From the NCBI RefSeq assembly GCF_000026545.1, contig NC_011601.1: 64,000 bases of DNA. The stretch is one strand, 5' to 3'. The translations under genes and the position numbers were made by a program. The notes below the pieces were generated by a model, which was given only the letters and a program-made list of their open reading frames with translations, was not told the origin of the DNA and ran no database searches. Positions 41,757-49,468 of the stretch are shown here, piece by piece. Source of the DNA: Escherichia coli O127:H6 str. E2348/69 (lineage in GTDB: Bacteria; Pseudomonadota; Gammaproteobacteria; Enterobacterales; Enterobacteriaceae). How positions within the stretch are numbered: position 1 is the stretch's first letter; each line of letters begins with the position of its first letter.

Positions 41757-42792
41757 GACCAGTTACATCCTTTCCACTCAAATTAGTCAGCGTATTGTCC
41801 AGCGGTTGTTTACCTGCCAGTGCATTAAGCATTGTCGTGGCAAAGTTCGGGTCATTCCCCAGCGCCGCCGCCAGTTCGTTCAGTGTATCCAGTGCCGCAG
41901 GTGCAGAACCCACCATTGCCGCAATCGCCGATTTCACAAATGCCGTGGTGGCAATTTGTGTATTGTTGACCGACTGTGCCGCAGTAGGTGCGGTTGGCGT
42001 TCCGGTGAGTGCCGGACTCGACAGCGGCGCTTTCAGTGCCAGCGCATTGTTAATGGTGGTACTGAATTTCGGATCATTGTTAATGGCTGCGGCTATTTCT
42101 TTCAGCGTGTCCAGCGTGGCTGGCGCACCATTAATAAGAGCCGTCAGAGCCGCCTGAACAAACTCGGTGGTCGCAATCTGCGTGGTGTTATTCCCTGCTG
42201 CTGGCGTTGGCGCTTTGGGTGTCCCGGTAAACGTCGGACTTTCTTTGGGTACATACTGTGAATGCGGGTCCGGTGCGGCAAGATGTTTTGCCATCTGATC
42301 ATCCGCGTACACCTTCAGCTCCAGTGCCTTGTCATCCACATACTTGCGGGTTGCTAGCACTACAGCAGGGTCGATTTTCAGGGTGATATTGTCCGTGCTG
42401 CTGGTAATCAGCACCATGCGCACGGTCTGAGTGCGCCCGCTACCTTCAGCCAGTTGCGGCTTATAGCTTTCCGGGCAGTTGCCCACGGCAATCAATGCCC
42501 CGGACTCATCAAACAAGCCCACTTCACGTATCCACCAACCGCCCTCGTTTTCAGGAATCACCTGTTCGGCAATAATCTGACTGCTGTTCTGCGGGTCGAT
42601 ATAGAGCATATTCAGCGCAGCCCGGCGTTTCTCATTTACCAGTGCAGTCTGCTTTGAGTCTGGCGTTGGCAATACTCCGCCGCCATCGCCGACCGCCATA
42701 TGGGTAATTTTTAGCGGCACACCGAGCGCGGCGGCGCTGGCAAGTTTCGCCGCGCCAATATCCGTCAGCAGGGTATAAAATTTTGTGCTCAT
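41731..42792 (-). CDS. H: Tail fiber protein H, N-terminal constant portion only
   Basis: N-terminus matches P2 H by eye (MAVGDGGG, ESYKP.LAEGSGR, NDPNFATTM.NALAGKQP); ends at 353 aa versus ~670 in P2, exactly at site A. Confidence 0.8.
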   Translation of the reverse strand: MSTKFYTLLTDIGAAKLASAAALGVPLKITHMAVGDGGGVLPTPDSKQTALVNEKRRAALNMLYIDPQNSSQIIAEQVIPENEGGWWIREVGLFDESGALIAVGNCPESYKPQLAEGSGRTQTVRMVLITSSTDNITLKIDPAVVLATRKYVDDKALELKVYADDQMAKHLAAPDPHSQYVPKESPTFTGTPKAPTPAAGNNTTQIATTEFVQAALTALINGAPATLDTLKEIAAAINNDPKFSTTINNALALKAPLSSPALTGTPTAPTAAQSVNNTQIATTAFVKSAIAAMVGSAPAALDTLNELAAALGNDPNFATTMLNALAGKQPLDNTLTNLSGKDVTGLLTYLRLA

Positions 42793-43394
42793 GGATTCAC
42801 TCTCATTGTGTCAATAACATGGACCGCCCCGCCTTCATGCGCGGTGCCGCCAGAAATAATTGTTTCGTTGATATACGGATAGATCGTGATTTCTTCGCCA
42901 AGATAGCTGGCGGCCCCCACCCAATGCGGACCGCTGGTCTGCAGATTGATGGACATGCCGATCATGTGACGGCTACATGGTTTGGCATCGCTTATCAGCC
43001 GCTCAAGTTCCAGATAGGTATCTTCAGTGATGCCCTGGTCCTGCACGCAGATATCCAGGCGAAACGTGCCCGGTGCCTCTCCGGTCTGCCACCACTCAAT
43101 AATGCGGATCAGAAAGCCGAACGGCTCCACCACCCGCCGCACGGCACTGGTGGTTCCTTTATGCTGATGAATATAAAAAGCATCCTTCACCACCTGACGT
43201 TTGACGCTTTCTGTCCAGCCCTCGTCCCAGCGATCCACAGAGAACGCCCAAGCGAGATAAGGCAGGAAACTGACCGGACAGGTTGCCGGATTCCACAAGT
43301 CACGCAGCGGCACCTGCAGATCAGAAATCCCGCTGCAGGTTTGCGCCAGTCGGCGCTCCAGTGGCGTTGAACCCGGTGGCAGCAGACTATTCAT
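42789..43394 (-). CDS. I: Baseplate protein I (P2 gpI-like)
   Basis: 201 aa; LWNP.TCP...LPYLAWAFSVDRWDE matches P2 I. Confidence 0.85.
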   Translation of the reverse strand: MNSLLPPGSTPLERRLAQTCSGISDLQVPLRDLWNPATCPVSFLPYLAWAFSVDRWDEGWTESVKRQVVKDAFYIHQHKGTTSAVRRVVEPFGFLIRIIEWWQTGEAPGTFRLDICVQDQGITEDTYLELERLISDAKPCSRHMIGMSINLQTSGPHWVGAASYLGEEITIYPYINETIISGGTAHEGGAVHVIDTMRVNP

Positions 43395-44295
43395 CCGTAC
43401 CCCCGTTGGTCACGCTCCACTGCGTACATGATGCCGCCTGCGTTTTGTTCAGGACCACATCTGCCAGCGGGGAAGCCAGCTCCACACGCTGAACACCCTC
43501 AACATGCAGCGCGGCAAAAATGGCGCTACGGCGAATATCCCGACCAAGCCGCGTCTGACTGGCGATGTACCTCTGCAGGCTGGCTTTTGCCGCTGCCATT
43601 ACCGGCTCTGCTTCCGGCCCCGGATAGAGAAAAATGGTGGCTTCCACGCGGTACGGGATGATTTCCGCGCTGCGAACCGTCAGACGGTCAGCCACCGGGC
43701 GGACGTTCTCACTGTTCAGGGCTTTCTCCACCACATCCAGCAGGTCTTTTTCTGCTGTTCCGTCGCCTTCACGGCTTAGGACCGTAAGCACCACCTCTGC
43801 AGGTGCCGGACTGGTTGCACTGGCATCCGCCACCCGACCGTCGGCGCTTCGTGCATGAAACTCATAAGCGGCAGTTGGCCCAGCAACAGAAAGCCCTTCA
43901 AAGGCTGCAGGCACACGCAGGCGTAACGCTTCATCACTTTCCATCACAGCCGCAACGGGCGGTACAGCGTCATCATCAGCAGGTGTCACCGTCAGGCGTT
44001 TCACGTTGTAGTTAGCAGCGAGATGGTCAAGATCGCCGCCCATCGCGTAAGCCACCATCACAGCCTGCGCGGCTTCGTTAATGCGCTGGCGCAGAAGCAA
44101 CTCACGGTAAGCGTTCTCCTGCAGCAATTTGGTGACGGGTTCAGATTCCAGTTCCAGCGTACGCATCACTGCTTCCTGCTCATCTTTCGGATGAAGCGCC
44201 ACAAATTCTGCCTTGCGTTCGGCAAGCAGCGTCTCAAAGTCCGGCACATCCACAATCTGCGGCGCAGGTAACTGCGAAAGGTCAATCACTGCCAT
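43387..44295 (-). CDS. J: Baseplate protein J (P2 gpJ-like)
   Basis: Start MAVIDLSQLPAP gives 302 aa as in P2 J. Confidence 0.85.
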   Translation of the reverse strand: MAVIDLSQLPAPQIVDVPDFETLLAERKAEFVALHPKDEQEAVMRTLELESEPVTKLLQENAYRELLLRQRINEAAQAVMVAYAMGGDLDHLAANYNVKRLTVTPADDDAVPPVAAVMESDEALRLRVPAAFEGLSVAGPTAAYEFHARSADGRVADASATSPAPAEVVLTVLSREGDGTAEKDLLDVVEKALNSENVRPVADRLTVRSAEIIPYRVEATIFLYPGPEAEPVMAAAKASLQRYIASQTRLGRDIRRSAIFAALHVEGVQRVELASPLADVVLNKTQAASCTQWSVTNGGTDE

Positions 44296-44641
44296 TCTCT
44301 GCTCCTGTTGATACGGAAAGGGAAACAGGCACACCGTTATTCCGCCGCCCGGTCAGCTCCACCACCATTGAACCGTCAAAATTGCTGTTGATGGTGATGG
44401 AATCCAGCGTCAGCCGTGGCTCCCAGCGACTCAGCGCCACATACACTGCCGACATGACCTGCAGGCGTAATGCCGGATTTTGTGGCTGATCTATCAGTGC
44501 CGACAGCAGGGAACCATATTCCCGGCGAGCAATGCGGCTACCCTGCGGTGTCAGCAGAATGTCCCGCACCGACTGGCGCAGATGGTCAATATCAGTAATG
44601 GCTTTACCGCTGGTATTGTTCATCCCGCTATAAAGCGTCAT
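44282..44641 (-). CDS. W: Baseplate wedge protein W (gp25-like)
   Basis: 119 aa; gp25/GPW-like sequence (ITDIDHLRQSVRDILLTPQGSR). Confidence 0.85.
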   Translation of the reverse strand: MTLYSGMNNTSGKAITDIDHLRQSVRDILLTPQGSRIARREYGSLLSALIDQPQNPALRLQVMSAVYVALSRWEPRLTLDSITINSNFDGSMVVELTGRRNNGVPVSLSVSTGAENGSD

Positions 44642-45216
44642 ACCGGGCCTCCGGTTGTATCGCCGCCTTTCAGGACGCCAGTATGCTGATGCACATCAAC
44701 CACGATCCCGTTAGAACTCATCGCACCGCCGCCCTGGGTAACGCCGCCATTGATCACTACTTCACTATTAATACGCGTGCGGTCAGCCTCCAGCACAAAC
44801 TCACTGGTTTTCAGGGTGATATTGTCGGCAGCCTCAATAACCATGGATTTGATGCCCCTGACATACCAGCGCCCGGTGGCGGGTTCGTATTCAAACCAGC
44901 CACCGTCAGGATGTTCTGTCACGCAGGCGTCCGCCGACGTCGACGGTGGTGCGAACTGATTCGAATAGACAGCGGGCAGCGCAAAGGCGGTCTCCAGATT
45001 GCCGCCCAGACTCAGCAGCACCACCTGCTCACCTTCCGATGGTCGCCACCATGTCCGGGCATTCCCGGCACGCAGGGTCAGCCAGCTGATCCAGTTGGTT
45101 TCTAAGTCGCCTGTTTTCACCCGGCAAAGCCAGTTTTCCCTGTCCACTTCCGTGACTACACCAGTGCGGATCAGGTTGGTGATAAGGCGCATGATTTCGG
45201 TTAGTTGTGCATTCAT
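44638..45216 (-). CDS. V: Baseplate spike/hub protein V
   Basis: Start MNAQLTEIMRLITNLIRTG aligns with P2 V N-terminus; ORF-track start 45237 is a TTG extension. Confidence 0.8.
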   Translation of the reverse strand: MNAQLTEIMRLITNLIRTGVVTEVDRENWLCRVKTGDLETNWISWLTLRAGNARTWWRPSEGEQVVLLSLGGNLETAFALPAVYSNQFAPPSTSADACVTEHPDGGWFEYEPATGRWYVRGIKSMVIEAADNITLKTSEFVLEADRTRINSEVVINGGVTQGGGAMSSNGIVVDVHQHTGVLKGGDTTGGPV

Positions 45217-45261
45217 CCTTCTATAGTTGCAAAGCAAGATTTTTTTTCATCGTTGTGGCAG

Positions 45262-45279
45262 TGTATGATTTTTGGCACA
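45262..45279. promoter_or_regulatory. Late promoter activator dyad (TGT-N12-ACA) between V and cargo gene
   Basis: TGTatgatttttggcACA; likely remnant of the V-operon late promoter carried with the inverted block. Confidence 0.4.
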
Positions 45280-46453
45280 ATTGAATTCTCATATGGAGAT
45301 GACTGAAATGATCTTTGCTGCACGTTACTTGGTCGAGTTGCCTTATGTCCTCAATATTCCAGATGGTGATTATGATTTTCTATATGAAAATAACCATTTA
45401 CGCTTAACAGTTCACAACGATTACTATGCACTATTTAAAGATGCAAGCTTATTCCCTCAAACCCTATTAATCGGTACCAGAGAACAACTACTACCACATC
45501 ACACAAATGAAAGAGGGATAATGAAATGCCGGACTATTATTTCTCTCGCCAACTATTGGGAATGTTTTGACCTTTTAGAAATATCACATGAAGAACTAAT
45601 CAACTCTATAAGAAACCAAATAAGGAAAGAAGATAACTTCCCATCTGTGGAAGATGCTGAGATGCTCCTATCCAAAATGAGCCAGCAAGATATAGATAAA
45701 AAAATAGAGTTAGAGAGAAAAATAAAAACTGCTAGAGAGATATTTCCACCTAAAAGATCAGAGGAATGTATCGGAATAATAAACCACTTTATAAAACAGT
45801 ATAGAGTTGCCTTTAAAGATCAATTTGCAGACGAGATATCTCTTTATCAAGTTGGCTCAGGATTTACCAACGGAGTGTTACAAGAGCATTATTGCGATGG
45901 TATTAAGATAAGTGCAATTCCTTTAGTTGGAGTAATCACCCCATTAATGAGAGAAAGCTGGTATAAACACGATGAAAGTCTCATTGATAATTTCAAAAAA
46001 CGTTTAATGTCAAATGAATTCAATGAACATCCTGAACTATTATTGATTAGAGCAGACAATCTTGTTCATAAAGGTGCATTTAGATCAGCCGTAATTGAAG
46101 CATCAGCAGGCCTTGAAAGCTATATTCTCAGAAAAATTATTAATGCCTTTCATCGCAATGGTATCAATGAATGCCAGACAAAAGAAACATTAAATAAAAA
46201 CTGGAAGTTCGATGATAGATGTAAAAAACTATTCAAACAACTCTTTAACATCTCTGTACCCGAAATTGCGCCACTTGAGTGGCAACATGCAAATAAAAAC
46301 AGGAAAGAATTACGTGACAAAATAGCTCATACATCACATGAACCAACAGAGAAAGAAACAAAAGAATTTATAAAAAGCATCAATTTATTAATTGAAAAAA
46401 TAGACTCATACTTTAAGAAAATTAATGAATCTAACGAATCAAAAAATTTATGA
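45272..46453 (+). CDS. Hypothetical 393-aa protein (AT-rich cargo at Z/fun-equivalent position)
   Basis: Long AT-rich ORF; no core-phage homolog recognised; Rx4-6H-like motifs (RADNLVH, RDKIAH); true start may be 45293. Confidence 0.6.
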   Translation: MAQLNSHMEMTEMIFAARYLVELPYVLNIPDGDYDFLYENNHLRLTVHNDYYALFKDASLFPQTLLIGTREQLLPHHTNERGIMKCRTIISLANYWECFDLLEISHEELINSIRNQIRKEDNFPSVEDAEMLLSKMSQQDIDKKIELERKIKTAREIFPPKRSEECIGIINHFIKQYRVAFKDQFADEISLYQVGSGFTNGVLQEHYCDGIKISAIPLVGVITPLMRESWYKHDESLIDNFKKRLMSNEFNEHPELLLIRADNLVHKGAFRSAVIEASAGLESYILRKIINAFHRNGINECQTKETLNKNWKFDDRCKKLFKQLFNISVPEIAPLEWQHANKNRKELRDKIAHTSHEPTEKETKEFIKSINLLIEKIDSYFKKINESNESKNL

Positions 46454-46489
46454 TTATCTCTTCTATAATATCAAAATCAGTATCATAAA

Positions 46490-46515
46490 TTCCAAGTAAC
46501 CTACGTTTATGAAAA
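46490..46515. repeat. gix/hix-like 26-bp recombination site B
   Basis: TTCCAAGTAACCTACGTTTATGAAAA, ~55 bp upstream of invertase start; 18/26 identical to reverse complement of site A. Confidence 0.55.
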
Positions 46516-46570
46516 TGCAGAGATAATGGCTAACTGGCATCATCCACGGTTTTTATTCAGGGGATTGATC

Positions 46571-47137
46571 ATGCTTATTGGCTATGTACGCGTGTCAACA
46601 AATGACCAGAACACCGATTTGCAACGTAATGCACTGAACTGCGCGGGATGTGAGCGGATTTTTGAGGATAAAATCAGTGGCACTAAGTCCGACAGACCGG
46701 GGCTTAAAAAACTGCTCAGGACACTATCGGCAGGAGACACTCTGGTTGTCTGGAAGCTGGACAGGTTGGGGCGCAGTATGCGGCATCTTGTTACGCTGAT
46801 AGAAGAGTTGCGTCAGCGTGGCGTGAATTTCCGAAGCCTGACTGACAGTATTGATACCAGCACCCCAATGGGCCGTTTCTTTTTTCATGTCATGGGGGCC
46901 CTGGCTGAAATGGAACGCGAACTGATAGTTGAACGTACCATGGCAGGGCTGGCTGCAGCTCGTGCCAAAGGCAGAGTAGGTGGACGCCGTCCTAAGTTGA
47001 CCACCGAACAGTGGGCACAGATTGGGCGTTTACTCGAGGCCGGAGAATCAAGACAGCGTATTGCACTGATTTTTGATGTAGGCGTTTCTACCATTTATAG
47101 AAAATTTCCGGCAAATAAGAGCAATGAATCCCCCTGA
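46571..47137 (+). CDS. pin: Serine site-specific DNA invertase (Pin/Gin/Hin family)
   Basis: Start MLIGYVRVSTNDQ with catalytic Ser; near-identical by eye to e14 Pin / Mu Gin; C-terminal HTH. Confidence 0.9.
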   Translation: MLIGYVRVSTNDQNTDLQRNALNCAGCERIFEDKISGTKSDRPGLKKLLRTLSAGDTLVVWKLDRLGRSMRHLVTLIEELRQRGVNFRSLTDSIDTSTPMGRFFFHVMGALAEMERELIVERTMAGLAAARAKGRVGGRRPKLTTEQWAQIGRLLEAGESRQRIALIFDVGVSTIYRKFPANKSNESP

Positions 47138-47279: not shown

Positions 47280-48452
47280 ATGGTTCAGGATTACCACCAC
47301 GGGGTGCGCGTTGTTGAAGTCAACGAAGGTACCCGATCCATTACCACGGTGAGCACCGCCATCGTGGGCATGGTCTGCACGGGCGATGATGCCGATGCAA
47401 AAATGTTTCCTCTTAATAAACCCGTGCTGATCACTGATGTGCTGACTGCCAGCGGTAAAGCGGGTGAGTCCGGCACGCTGGCCCGTTCGCTGGATGCCAT
47501 CTCTGACCAGGCAAAACCCGTGACCGTTGTTGTGCGTGTGCCGCAGGGTGAAACGGAAGAAGAAACCACGACCAATATCATCGGCGCAGTGACTGCTGAA
47601 GGTAAAAAAACAGGCATGAAAGCCCTGTTATCTGCCCAGACACAGCTCGGCGTTAAACCGCGCATTCTCGGCGTGCCAGGTCACGATAACAAAGCCGTTG
47701 CGACTGAGTTGCTGAGTGTGGCGCAAAGCCTGCGTGGGTTTGCCTACCTGTCAGCGTATGGCTGCAAGACGGTACAGGAGGCGATCACTTACCGTGAAAA
47801 CTTCAGCCAGCGCGAAGGAATGCTGATCTGGCCCGACTTTACTGGCTGGGACACGGTGCTGAATGCCGAAGCAACGGCATATGCCACCGCCCGTGCGCTT
47901 GGTCTGCGTGCCAAAATTGATGAGCAGACCGGGTGGCACAAAAGCCTGTCCAACGTGGGCGTGAACGGTGTCACCGGAATTTCTGCAGATGTGTTCTGGG
48001 ATCTGCAGGACCCGGCAACCGATGCAGGTCTGCTGAACCAGAACGACGTCACCACGCTTGTGCGTAAAGACGGTTTCCGCTTCTGGGGTTCCCGCTGCCT
48101 GAGTGATGACCCGCTCTTTGCCTTCGAAAACTACACCCGCACGGCGCAGGTGCTGACGGACACAATGGCAGAAGCGCACATGTGGGCAGTGGACAAACCG
48201 CTGAACCCGTCGCTGGCGCGCGACATTATCGAGGGCATCCGCGCCAAAATGCGCAGCCTGGTCAGTCAGGGGTATCTCATTGGTGGTGATTGCTGGCTGG
48301 ACGAGTCGGTGAACGACAAAGACACTCTGAAAGCCGGAAAACTCACCATCGACTACGACTACACGCCAGTGCCGCCACTTGAAAACCTGATGTTGCGTCA
48401 GCGCATCACCGATCAGTACCTGGTGAATTTCGCCAGCCAGGTCAGCGCGTAA
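47280..48452 (+). CDS. FI: Tail sheath protein (P2 gpFI-like)
   Basis: 390 aa; position and size as P2 FI. Confidence 0.9.
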
Positions 48453-48461
48453 GGGGACAAC

Positions 48462-48977
48462 ATGGCTTTACCACGCAAATTAAAACACCTGAACCTGTTT
48501 AACGACGGGAACAACTGGCAGGGGATCGTTGAGTCGCTGACGCTGCCGAAATTCACCCGCAAATATGAGAAGTATCGCGGTGGCGGAATGCCGGGGGCAG
48601 TGGATGTGGATCTGGGGCTTGATGACAGTGCGCTGGACACAGAATTTACCATTGGTGGTACTGAACTGCTGCTGTTTAAGCAGATGGGCAAAGCCACGGT
48701 GGATGGCATCCAGTTGCGCTTTACCGGCTCTATCCAGCGTGACGATACCGGGGAAGTGCAGGCCGTGGAGCTTGTGGTGCGTGGACGTCACAAAGAAGTG
48801 GATTCCGGTGAGTGGAAGACGGGCGAAAGCAACACCACCAAAGTGACCAGTACCAACAGCTACGCGAAGCTGACCATCAATGGTGAGGTGCTCTATGAAG
48901 TGGACCTTATCAACATGGTGGAAATTGTGGACGGTGTGGACCTGATGGAAGCGCACCGCAACGCCCTCGGCCTCTGA
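48462..48977 (+). CDS. FII: Tail tube protein (P2 gpFII-like)
   Basis: 171 aa following sheath. Confidence 0.9.
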   Translation: MALPRKLKHLNLFNDGNNWQGIVESLTLPKFTRKYEKYRGGGMPGAVDVDLGLDDSALDTEFTIGGTELLLFKQMGKATVDGIQLRFTGSIQRDDTGEVQAVELVVRGRHKEVDSGEWKTGESNTTKVTSTNSYAKLTINGEVLYEVDLINMVEIVDGVDLMEAHRNALGL

Positions 48978-49031
48978 TATATCTGAACGGCGCGGGATAC
49001 CGCGCCAGAACCCAATTGACAGGACAGCAAA

Positions 49032-49334
49032 ATGAGCGATAAGCAGACTGAAAAGACCATTCAACTGGATACCCCCATCAAGCGCGGTAAAACAGAAATC
49101 ACCGAAATTGTGCTGCGTAAACCGCAGTCCGGTGCGCTGCGCGGTACACGCCTGCAGGCCATTATGGATATGGATGTAAACGCGATGATGACCGTGATCC
49201 CCCGCATCTCCAGTCCGGCACTGACTGCACAGGAAATTGCAGAGATGGACCCGGCAGATCTCACTGCCATGTCGGTTGAGGTTGTCACTTTTTTGTTGAA
49301 GAAGTCGGTGCTTGCCGGTTTACCGACAGCCTGA
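49032..49334 (+). CDS. E: Tail assembly chaperone E
   Basis: 100 aa; slippery heptamer near 3' end. Confidence 0.8.
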   Translation: MSDKQTEKTIQLDTPIKRGKTEITEIVLRKPQSGALRGTRLQAIMDMDVNAMMTVIPRISSPALTAQEIAEMDPADLTAMSVEVVTFLLKKSVLAGLPTA

Positions 49335-49468
49335 CGGTTGACGATCTGGTGGCAGATATCGCCACCATTTTTCACTGGCCGCCATCCGTTACTGACGTTA
49401 TGCCGCTGACCGAAGTGCTGGAATGGCGGTATAAAGCGATTCAGAGAAGCGGGGCCAACGATGAGTGA
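49032..49468 (+). CDS. Tail assembly chaperone E+E' (programmed -1 frameshift product)
   Basis: Slippery T-run then G at 49289..49295; hand translation of the -1 frame stays open to TGA at 49466..49468, overlapping T start. Confidence 0.65.
49289..49295 (+). other. -1 frameshift slippery site TTTTTTG
   Basis: Heptamer present in-frame near end of E. Confidence 0.65.

What the first reader, a model, noticed from the sequence alone, without database searches (positions are those of the whole stretch)
49289..49468. Conserved E/E' programmed -1 frameshift
A run of six T followed by G lies in-frame near the end of E. The -1 frame stays open for ~58 codons and terminates a few bases into the tape-measure gene, reproducing the E/E' arrangement of P2 (equivalent to G/GT in lambda). 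This supports the tail-assembly module being intact even though the fiber module is scrambled.
Basis: partly seen in the sequence, partly recalled or inferred. Interest (0 to 1): 0.25.

Follow-up and report, generated by a model that had tools for sequence, protein, structure and literature searches.

The report
P2-type E/E' tail-chaperone frameshift site
This is the well-known programmed -1 ribosomal frameshift that lets P2-like phages make two tail-assembly chaperones (E and E+E') from one start codon. It is intact in this E. coli prophage, so the finding is correct but ordinary.

Summary
Six T plus G lie at 49289-49295 and are read in the E frame as ACT TTT TTG, a canonical X_XXY_YYZ heptamer, 14 codons before the E stop. 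The -1 frame runs 57 sense codons to TGA at 49466-49468, 8 nt into the tape-measure gene (ATG 49461).

The fused 145-aa product hits Pfam Phage_TAC_7 (residues 9-88) and Phage_P2_GpE (residues 107-143). It aligns without gaps across the shift site to P2 E+E' (49% identity; E' part 56%, both 57 aa).

The heptamer sits at the homologous codon in P2. Of 125 distinct related loci, 124 carry an in-frame slippery heptamer, and 112 of them carry TTTTTTG. In 79 close relatives the T6 length never varies.

The locus is 100% identical to Escherichia phage 500465-1 and to the E2348/69 chromosome. It occurs in about 1000 of 5426 complete E. coli genomes.

No convincing 3' stimulatory structure was found, as reported for P2.

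Side observations:
- A family-wide Shine-Dalgarno-like RAG GTG lies 7 nt upstream of the heptamer, with synonymous-site bias.
- One relative has an extra T that fuses E and E' in one frame.
- The prophage is otherwise defective: the V-W-J-I-H' block is inverted, and S and H are truncated.

Verdict: already known, low interest.

The parts
48462..48977 (+). FII, major tail tube gene (upstream neighbour)
   Evidence: Pfam PF04985 Phage_tube, 4.8e-60
49032..49334 (+). Gene E (zero-frame product, 100 aa), tail assembly chaperone
   Evidence: Pfam PF10109 Phage_TAC_7 at residues 9-88, 1e-18; phrog_103 'tail protein', 2e-42; 43% identity to P2 E by tblastn
49278..49282 (+). GAGGT, candidate Shine-Dalgarno-like 5' element (GAGG ends 7 nt before the heptamer); weak in this window
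   Evidence: Anti-SD duplex of the 24 nt upstream is -10.3 kcal/mol against -9.0 +/- 3.8 for synonymous resampling, so it is not distinguishable here. Across the family the figures are -13.0 against -8.4, and the synonymous positions of RAG GTG are biased. A function is inferred only.
49289..49295 (+). Slippery heptamer T_TTT_TTG (X_XXY_YYZ) in the E frame
   Evidence: Same heptamer at the homologous codon in P2, where the frameshift site is annotated. Conserved in 112 of 125 distinct loci, with another slippery heptamer in 12 more.
49295..49468 (+). E' extension in the -1 frame (57 codons plus TGA); E+E' = 49032..49295 joined to 49295..49468, 145 aa
   Evidence: Pfam PF06528 Phage_P2_GpE at residues 107-143, 2.9e-18. 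phrog_1756 matches residues 85-145, spanning the junction. 56% identity to P2 E'. No stop in the -1 frame within 12 codons downstream in 27 of 27 representatives.
49304..49327 (+). Candidate hairpin GUCGGU-(12 nt)-ACCGAC, 8 nt 3' of the heptamer; unproven
   Evidence: -7.8 kcal/mol. The 60-nt fold has z = -0.06 against shuffles. There is one compensatory U-A to C-G change, a single event, and four invariant pairs. The hairpin is not conserved in P2.
49349..49468 (+). 39-aa ORF from GTG, annotated in RefSeq as a separate 'GpE family phage tail protein'; here read as an annotation artefact of the unjoined E' frame
   Evidence: Homology to P2 E+E' continues 18 codons upstream of this GTG to the heptamer. 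The SD for this GTG is weak, -5.9 kcal/mol.
49461..52538 (+). T, tape measure gene (downstream neighbour; its start overlaps the E' stop by 8 nt)
   Evidence: Pfam PF10145 PhageMin_Tail, 2e-18; intact 1025-aa ORF

Best explanation
This is the programmed -1 ribosomal frameshift site of the E/E' tail-assembly-chaperone gene pair of a P2-like (Peduoviridae, Wadgaonvirus-type) prophage.

Most ribosomes translate E (49032-49334) and terminate, giving the 100-aa chaperone E. A minority slip back one base on T_TTT_TTG (49289-49295), while tRNA-Phe on UUU and tRNA-Leu on UUG occupy the P and A sites. They continue in the -1 frame for 57 codons and terminate at 49466-49468 inside the start of the tape-measure gene. 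This gives the 145-aa fusion E+E'.

By analogy with lambda G/GT, the shared E part would bind the tape-measure protein and the E' part would recruit tail-tube subunits. The frameshift efficiency would then set the E : E+E' ratio needed for tail assembly.

Shown here: the sequence anatomy, the homology of both parts, the frame switch exactly at the heptamer, and the conservation. Inferred from P2 and lambda work: the actual slippage, its efficiency, and the chaperone roles.
For: - Anatomy: the heptamer is in phase, the -1 frame is open, and the E' stop overlaps the T start by 8 nt.
- Synteny FI-FII-E-T-U-D, supported by Pfam hits.
- The fused product hits PF10109 plus PF06528 and phrog_103 plus phrog_1756, the latter spanning the junction.
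- Gapless BLASTP to P2 E+E' across the shift site: 49% identity, E = 4e-51; E' part 56% identity; both E' parts 57 aa.
- P2 is annotated with a join and a '-1 translational frameshift' site at the same heptamer.
- PMC3091744 states that P2 shifts at TTTTTTG to give a 91-aa E and a 142-aa E+E'.
- tblastn of the fusion protein finds 425 phage records; 388 cover at least 80% of it, and the listed full-coverage hits are each in two pieces, that is, in two frames.
- All 17 diverse relatives with separate frames show a -1 arrangement, with an in-frame heptamer in the overlap.
- In loci collected through an E' motif independent of the slip site (pooled with the earlier loci), 124 of 125 distinct loci have an in-frame X_XXY_YYZ; 112 of them have TTTTTTG.
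- Reading-frame signals switch at the heptamer. Downstream, the zero frame stops within 12 codons in 20 of 27 representatives and the -1 frame in 0 of 27. Upstream, the zero frame stops in 0 of 27 and the -1 frame in 10 of 27.
- Heteropolymeric heptamers occupy the same place in some relatives: G_GGA_AAG in Mannheimia, C_CCT_TTC in Klebsiella ST16-OXA48phi5.4, and G_GGT_TTT in L200. These can only work by tRNA re-pairing.
Against: - Nothing here demonstrates slippage in this strain.
- The prophage is defective elsewhere (S and H truncated, baseplate block inverted), so the operon may not be expressed or needed.
- U_UUU_UUG is not among the motifs listed as most efficient in E. coli (PMC4066793).
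- No convincing 3' stimulator was found.
- RefSeq annotates E' as a separate small gene.
Confidence: 0.93

Rival explanations
1. E' is an independent small gene of 39 aa, initiated at GTG 49349, as RefSeq/PGAP annotates it ('GpE family phage tail protein'). No frameshift is involved.
For: Separate CDS in NC_049342, in E. coli RefSeq genomes and in several phage records. A GTG exists at 49349.
Against: - Homology to P2 E+E' in the -1 frame starts at the heptamer, 18 codons upstream of the GTG.
- phrog_1756 aligns to residues 85-145 of the fusion.
- The SD for the GTG is weak, -5.9 kcal/mol.
- The -1 frame is open from the heptamer in every relative, and the heptamer itself is conserved, which an independent gene would not require.
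- P2, PSP3 and KL3 are annotated as joins.
- From my recollection of its abstract (the paper could not be opened), Christie et al. 2002 verified the fusion polypeptide.
Confidence: 0.03
2. The frame change is made by RNA polymerase. Transcriptional slippage on the T6 run adds one U to a fraction of the mRNAs, and standard translation of those mRNAs gives E+E'.
For: - The site is a homopolymer run.
- A sister clade carries T7 (L083, L084).
- One relative (L003) has a DNA-level +1 T that fuses the frames, which shows the run is prone to length change.
Against: - Per the review PMC5009743, productive transcriptional slippage in bacteria is described for runs of about 9 A or T; T6 is short.
- Relatives use heteropolymeric X_XXY_YYZ heptamers at the same place (GGGAAAG, CCCTTTC, GGGTTTT), which cannot support polymerase slippage.
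- The run is always phased as X_XXY_YYZ.
Confidence: 0.04
3. This is a decaying gene: a single ancestral E-E' ORF broken by a 1-nt deletion in a defective prophage, so the two frames are a pseudogene artefact.
For: The prophage is defective elsewhere. One relative (L003) does have a single fused ORF.
Against: The split arrangement is the rule, not the exception. It holds in 124 of 125 distinct loci and in functional phages including P2, PSP3, Fels-2 and phiCTX. The window sequence is 100% identical to many other copies. L003 is the outlier within its own clade, which otherwise has T7.
Confidence: 0.005

Closest known systems
Bacteriophage P2 E / E+E' (FETUD operon; Christie et al. 2002, J Bacteriol 184:6522; NC_001895 P2p25/P2p26)
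   Same: - Same position between FII and T.
- Same TTTTTTG heptamer at the homologous codon (..G/T-F-L|V..).
- Same 57-aa E' extension.
- Same 8-nt overlap of the E' stop with the T start.
- 49% protein identity without gaps.
- Same Pfam families.
   Different: - E is 100 aa against 91 aa; the zero-frame tail after the heptamer is 13 codons against 7.
- The small GCCGAAnUCGGY hairpin present just 3' of the heptamer in P2 and many relatives is absent here. A different 6-bp hairpin lies 8 nt downstream.
- The upstream SD-like element is weaker here (GAG GTT against AAG GTG).
Escherichia phage 500465-1 (NC_049342, Wadgaonvirus) and Fels-2/SEN8-type Salmonella phages
   Same: 500465-1 is 100% identical over 48900-49600. 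SEN8, Fels-2 and RE2010 are 85-86% identical at nucleotide level, with the same heptamer and frame layout.
   Different: In those records E' is mostly annotated as a separate ORF rather than as a join. That is an annotation difference, not a biological one.
Phage lambda G / GT tail assembly chaperones (Levin et al. 1993; Xu, Hendrix and Duda 2004, 2013, 2014)
   Same: - Same logic and gene position (between the tail tube gene and the tape measure gene).
- A -1 shift near the end of the short ORF.
- The ratio of the two products is thought to be critical.
- Neither product is in the virion (PMC5009743).
   Different: No Pfam family of the lambda G/T type was hit. The heptamer differs: G_GGA_AAG in lambda (from memory). 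Lambda is a siphovirus, whereas this is a contractile-tail phage.
E. coli dnaX -1 frameshift (A_AAA_AAG with a 5' internal SD and a 3' hairpin)
   Same: Tandem-slippage heptamer. A Shine-Dalgarno-like sequence upstream is a possible parallel to the RAG GTG element seen in P2-like E genes.
   Different: - The dnaX SD lies 10 nt upstream and is an experimentally shown stimulator (PMC5009743). Here the core ends 7 nt upstream and is untested.
- No strong 3' hairpin is present here.
- The product logic is different.

Membership tests
P2-type E/E+E' frameshifted tail assembly chaperone pair | Located between the tail tube gene (FII) and the tape measure gene (T) in an FI-FII-E-T-U-D operon | tested here: met
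   Pfam hits for sheath, tube, PhageMin_Tail, GpU and GPD on the flanking ORFs
P2-type E/E+E' frameshifted tail assembly chaperone pair | The zero-frame product is a gpE homologue (Phage_TAC_7, PF10109) | tested here: met
   67.5 bits against a cut-off of 25; E = 1e-18
P2-type E/E+E' frameshifted tail assembly chaperone pair | The -1 frame encodes an E' homologue (Phage_P2_GpE, PF06528) contiguous with E at the shift site | tested here: met
   65.5 bits against a cut-off of 23; gapless alignment to P2 E+E' across the junction
P2-type E/E+E' frameshifted tail assembly chaperone pair | In-phase X_XXY_YYZ slippery heptamer (TTTTTTG in P2) inside the zone where both frames are open | tested here: met
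   T_TTT_TTG at 49289-49295, the only in-phase heptamer in the 55-nt overlap zone
P2-type E/E+E' frameshifted tail assembly chaperone pair | No credible independent translation start for E' | tested here: met
   There is no ATG, GTG or TTG in the -1 frame between 49280 and 49348. The first candidate is GTG 49349, with a weak SD (-5.9 kcal/mol), and it lies inside the conserved region.
P2-type E/E+E' frameshifted tail assembly chaperone pair | A fusion protein is actually made by -1 frameshifting (about 10% in P2, from my recollection of the Christie 2002 abstract) and is essential for tail assembly | not testable with these tools
   Needs a reporter assay, a western blot or mass spectrometry, plus complementation
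Lambda G/GT family (by sequence) | Sequence membership in the lambda gpG / gpT Pfam families | tested here: not met
   Only PF10109 and PF06528 were hit at E <= 0.01. It is a functional analogue, not a sequence member.
dnaX-type stimulated -1 frameshift signal | Internal SD 9-14 nt 5' of the heptamer, plus a stable 3' stem-loop | tested here: inconclusive
   The SD-like GAGG ends 7 nt upstream; it is weak in the window and stronger across the family. The 3' hairpin is -7.8 kcal/mol with a single covariation event, and the 60-nt fold has z = -0.06.

The most novel reading that the evidence does not exclude
The P2-family frameshift may not be stimulator-free, as is usually stated. A conserved Shine-Dalgarno-like RAG-GTG(-RTC) element ends about 7 nt 5' of T_TTT_TTG. 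Its synonymous positions are strongly biased: 23 of 25 G-ending codons at position -4 and 24 of 26 GTG at position -3. Anti-SD duplex energy averages -13.0 kcal/mol against -8.4 for synonymous resampling. Pairing of this element with 16S rRNA in the elongating ribosome could raise slippage on a heptamer that is not among the most efficient in E. coli. The window carries a weakened version (GAG GTT) together with a clade-specific 3' hairpin, which might compensate.
Probability: 0.25. Interest if true: 0.3.

Novelty: already known. Interest (0 to 1): 0.08.

Why it matters
Its main value is for annotation. RefSeq/PGAP and many phage records split this recoded gene into 'phage tail assembly protein' plus a 39-aa 'GpE family phage tail protein' in about a thousand complete E. 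coli genomes. The real product is a 145-aa E+E' fusion.

Biologically it shows only that this defective E2348/69-type P2-like prophage keeps an undecayed tail-chaperone recoding signal.

The one open point of some interest is whether the family-wide SD-like element upstream of the heptamer is a real 5' stimulator.

Tried and rejected
1. **Downstream stimulatory structure.** Folds of 60, 100 and 150 nt after the heptamer gave z = -0.06, -1.29 and -2.50. The only well-placed element is a -7.8 kcal/mol hairpin at 49304-49327. On 12 distinct clade sequences it has four invariant pairs and one compensatory pair from a single event, and it is absent in P2. I rejected it as demonstrated and kept it as a candidate.

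2. **NCBIfam scan of E and E+E'.** No family was hit.

3. **Reading Christie et al. 2002 (PMC135442).** The paper is not held, so the roughly 10% efficiency and the fusion-polypeptide evidence rest on my recollection of the abstract and on secondary citation in PMC3091744.

4. **A_AAA_AAG heptamers at 28346 and 29162 with long -1 frames.** These looked like further recoding candidates. They lie in spurious ORFs inside the 804-aa gpA-like replication gene 27452-29866, so I rejected them.

5. **Apparent loci without a heptamer in the first census.** On inspection these were artefacts of my frame-window logic in GC-rich genomes. All had TTTTTTG, TTTTTTC or TTTTTTT, except one AT-rich chance match, L136.

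6. **Inverted repeats at the ends of the inverted V-W-J-I-H' block.** None was convincing.

7. **PADLOC on the 393-aa cargo ORF.** No hit.

Full report
**Observation**

The sequence at 49280-49299 is GGTTGTCACTTTTTTGTTGA. Six T occupy 49289-49294 and G occupies 49295.

The ORF 49032..49334 (100 aa) reads this stretch as ...GTC ACT TTT TTG TTG AAG.... The run is therefore phased T_TTT_TTG, the canonical X_XXY_YYZ pattern, 14 codons before the stop at 49332-49334.

The -1 frame is open from 49280 to TGA 49466-49468. That gives 57 sense codons after the slip. The 1025-aa tape-measure ORF starts at ATG 49461, so E' ends 8 nt inside it.

**Is it more than chance?**

The heptamer by itself is not significant. 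TTTTTTG occurs 31 times on the two strands of the window. Four of 99 in-phase heptamers in ORFs of at least 80 aa have a long -1 extension near a stop. The other three simply run into a neighbouring or enclosing real gene, for example the gpA-like gene 27452-29866.

The significance comes from homology and conservation, set out below.

**What it is**

The flanking ORFs are:

| Gene | Coordinates |
|---|---|
| Tail sheath | 47280-48452 |
| Tail tube FII | 48462-48977 |
| Tape measure | 49461-52538 |
| gpU | 52535-53020 |
| gpD | 53017-54117 |

All were assigned by Pfam.

The conceptual fusion 49032..49295 + 49295..49468 is 145 aa long. It hits PF10109 (Phage_TAC_7, 'E, or 41 or 14') at residues 9-88 and PF06528 (Phage_P2_GpE) at residues 107-143, each at about 1e-18 and far above the curated cut-offs. 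PHROGs gives phrog_103 for the E part, and phrog_1756 for residues 85-145, which spans the junction.

P2 itself (NC_001895) is annotated with E, a joined E+E' CDS and a 'site of -1 translational frameshift'. Its sequence has GGT TTT TTG at the corresponding place.

BLASTP of the window fusion against the P2 fusion gives 49% identity over 139 residues, with no gap across the junction (..VVTFL|VEEVGA.. against ..VVGFL|VAELGA..). The E' parts are 56% identical and both are 57 aa. The 8-nt overlap of the E' stop with the T start is also the same.

**Comparative evidence**

The 701-nt region is 100% identical to Escherichia phage 500465-1 (Wadgaonvirus, Peduoviridae) and 85-97% identical to Klebsiella, Salmonella (Fels-2, SEN8, RE2010) and Yersinia P2-like phages.

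tblastn of the fusion finds 425 phage records. Of these, 388 cover at least 80% of the fusion, and the listed full-coverage hits are each in two pieces, that is, in two frames.

In 79 close IMG/VR relatives (43 distinct sequences, at least 97% identity) the T6 run is invariant in length and position. One has TTTTTTA.

In 18 diverse relatives (P2, PSP3, ENT90, phiCTX, Burkholderia KL3 and vB_CB1, Ralstonia, Acidovorax, Vibrio MAR, a Zymomonas plasmid prophage, Mannheimia and others) the E-to-E' transition is -1 in 17. The overlap zone contains an in-phase heptamer:
- TTTTTTG in 13;
- TTTTTTC, TTTTTTT, GGGAAAG and CCCTTTC in the others.

A further 120 IMG/VR loci were collected through the E' motif A-x-IFHWPP, independently of the slip site. 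Pooled with the earlier loci, they give 125 distinct 270-nt segments. Of these, 124 have an in-phase X_XXY_YYZ heptamer, 112 of them TTTTTTG, mostly exactly 72 nt upstream of the motif. The one exception is an AT-rich chance match.

Reading-frame signals flip exactly at the heptamer in 27 representatives:

| Region | Zero frame has a stop within 12 codons | -1 frame has a stop within 12 codons |
|---|---|---|
| Upstream of the heptamer | 0 of 27 | 10 of 27 |
| Downstream of the heptamer | 20 of 27 | 0 of 27 |

**Mechanism**

The best-supported mechanism is tandem -1 tRNA slippage on U_UUU_UUG. It produces E, and as a minority product E+E'.

PMC3091744 summarises the P2 case: TTTTTTG, a 91-aa E and a 142-aa E+E'. 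It also reports that no downstream hairpin is found in P2, KS5, KS14 or KL3.

The role of the two proteins is inferred from lambda G/GT. G and the G part of GT bind the tape measure, the T part recruits tube subunits, and the roughly 30:1 ratio is critical (PMC5009743).

I could not open Christie et al. 2002. From my recollection of its abstract, E' was essential and fusion polypeptides showed about 10% shifting.

**Rivals**

- *Independent initiation at GTG 49349.* This is how RefSeq annotates it. It is contradicted by homology to P2 E+E' over the 18 codons between the heptamer and that GTG, by the junction-spanning phrog_1756 match, and by a weak SD.
- *Transcriptional slippage.* This is disfavoured because relatives use heteropolymeric heptamers at the same site and because T6 is short relative to the roughly 9-nt runs described for bacteria. 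A minor contribution is not excluded.
- *Pseudogene split.* This is excluded by the universality of the arrangement.

**Stimulators**

*3' side.* Folding the 60 nt after the heptamer gives z = -0.06. A 6-bp hairpin at 49304-49327, 8 nt downstream, has -7.8 kcal/mol. It shows one compensatory U-A to C-G change in the Kapieceevirus/Gegevirus clade, but that is one event with four invariant pairs. It is not conserved in P2. This is not convincing.

*5' side.* Across 28 representatives the 24 nt upstream pair with the 16S 3' tail at -13.0 kcal/mol on average. Sequences resampled with synonymous codons average -8.4.

Codon -4 is G-ending in 23 of 25 cases, against a background of 0.47. Codon -3 is GTG in 24 of 26 cases, against a background of 0.58.

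These tests ignore phylogenetic relatedness, so they overstate significance. The window's own version (GAG GTT) is not distinguishable from its null: -10.3 against -9.0 +/- 3.8.

The GAGG/AAGG core ends 7 nt before the heptamer. The review gives 9-14 nt for -1 stimulators. Sharma et al. searched 6-17 nt.

U_UU.U_UU.G is not among the motifs they list as most efficient in E. coli. A stimulator would therefore make sense, but this remains a hypothesis.

**Context**

The window matches the EPEC E2348/69 (O127:H6) chromosome at 100% over 41500-46700. The prophage abuts ybjL.

Relative to phage 500465-1, the window differs as follows:
- Window 41744-45216 (V, W, J, I and the first ~1 kb of H) is inverted.
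- The rest of H and the fibre-assembly genes are replaced by 45217-46497, which carries a 393-aa ORF of unknown function.
- S is truncated at the junction.

FI-D is 97.4% identical to the phage, with ORF lengths equal to those annotated there. The prophage as a whole is probably defective, so an intact signal does not imply use.

**Novelty and score**

This is a textbook recoding site in a very common prophage: about 1000 of 5426 complete E. coli genomes carry the region. It is already known, and I score interest at 0.08.

The only residual novelty is the possible 5' SD-like stimulator in the family (probability about 0.25, modest interest).

Noticed in passing
window 49270-49288; related loci L002, L083-L098, L099-L218 (30 nt upstream of the heptamer): A Shine-Dalgarno-like RAG-GTG(-RTC) element is conserved just 5' of the slippery heptamer in P2-like E genes. 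Synonymous positions are biased: 23 of 25 G-ending and 24 of 26 GTG. Anti-SD pairing averages -13.0 kcal/mol against -8.4 for synonymous resampling. The window has a weaker version, GAG GTT. It may be a 5' frameshift stimulator, but it is untested, and I did not find it described in the papers I could read.
   Followed up: partly
L003:1742-1749 (IMGVR_UViG_2734481921_000002): This relative (82% nt identity) has T8 where its own clade (L083, L084) has T7. E and E' are therefore fused into a single 141-aa zero-frame ORF. It is either a homopolymer sequencing error or a natural allele that would make only E+E'.
   Followed up: partly
window 41744-45216 and 45217-46497: Relative to phage 500465-1, the baseplate/fibre block V-W-J-I plus the 5' ~1 kb of H is inverted. 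The 3' part of H and the fibre-assembly genes are replaced by 1.28 kb. Gene S is truncated at the left junction (RefSeq: 'missing C-terminus'). No inverted repeats were found at the ends. The arrangement is natural: it is 100% identical in three E2348/69 / O127:H6 assemblies and covered at 80% or more in 15 complete E. coli genomes. The prophage is probably defective.
   Followed up: partly
window 45272-46453 (+): A 393-aa ORF sits between the inverted baseplate block and the invertase, at about the position where P2 carries Z/fun between G and FI (from memory). It matches phrog_28299 (unknown function, 3e-277). It has no PADLOC hit and only a sub-threshold Pfam hit. It is possibly a moron or defence cargo.
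   Followed up: partly
window 49349-49468; NC_049342 24374-24493; NZ_CP059840.2 3281248-3281367: RefSeq/PGAP and many phage records annotate E' as a stand-alone 39-aa 'GpE family phage tail protein' rather than as a ribosomal-slippage join with E. This is a systematic mis-annotation affecting roughly a thousand complete E. coli genomes.
   Followed up: yes
L220 (NZ_CP059840.2 3278179-3281255), compared with window 49461-52538: In the CP059840.2 assembly of E2348/69 the tape-measure gene is flagged 'frameshifted' (3077 nt). In the window it is an intact 3078-nt ORF of the same length as in phage 500465-1. The likely cause is an assembly indel in that record, or a difference between strains or assemblies.
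   Followed up: no
window 46526-47137 (+): A serine recombinase / DNA invertase (Pfam Resolvase plus HTH_7) lies immediately upstream of FI, next to the rearranged fibre region. In 500465-1 it flanks an invertible fibre-tip segment that is missing here.
   Followed up: no
related loci: 2-16 nt after the heptamer (for example L002, L083, L118): Many P2-like phages, but not the window's clade, have a small palindrome GCCGAAnUCGGY starting 2 nt after the heptamer. It is encoded by A-E-[LVF]-G of E'. Its spacing is too short for a classical 3' stimulator, and the region is doubly coding, so its meaning is unclear.
   Followed up: no
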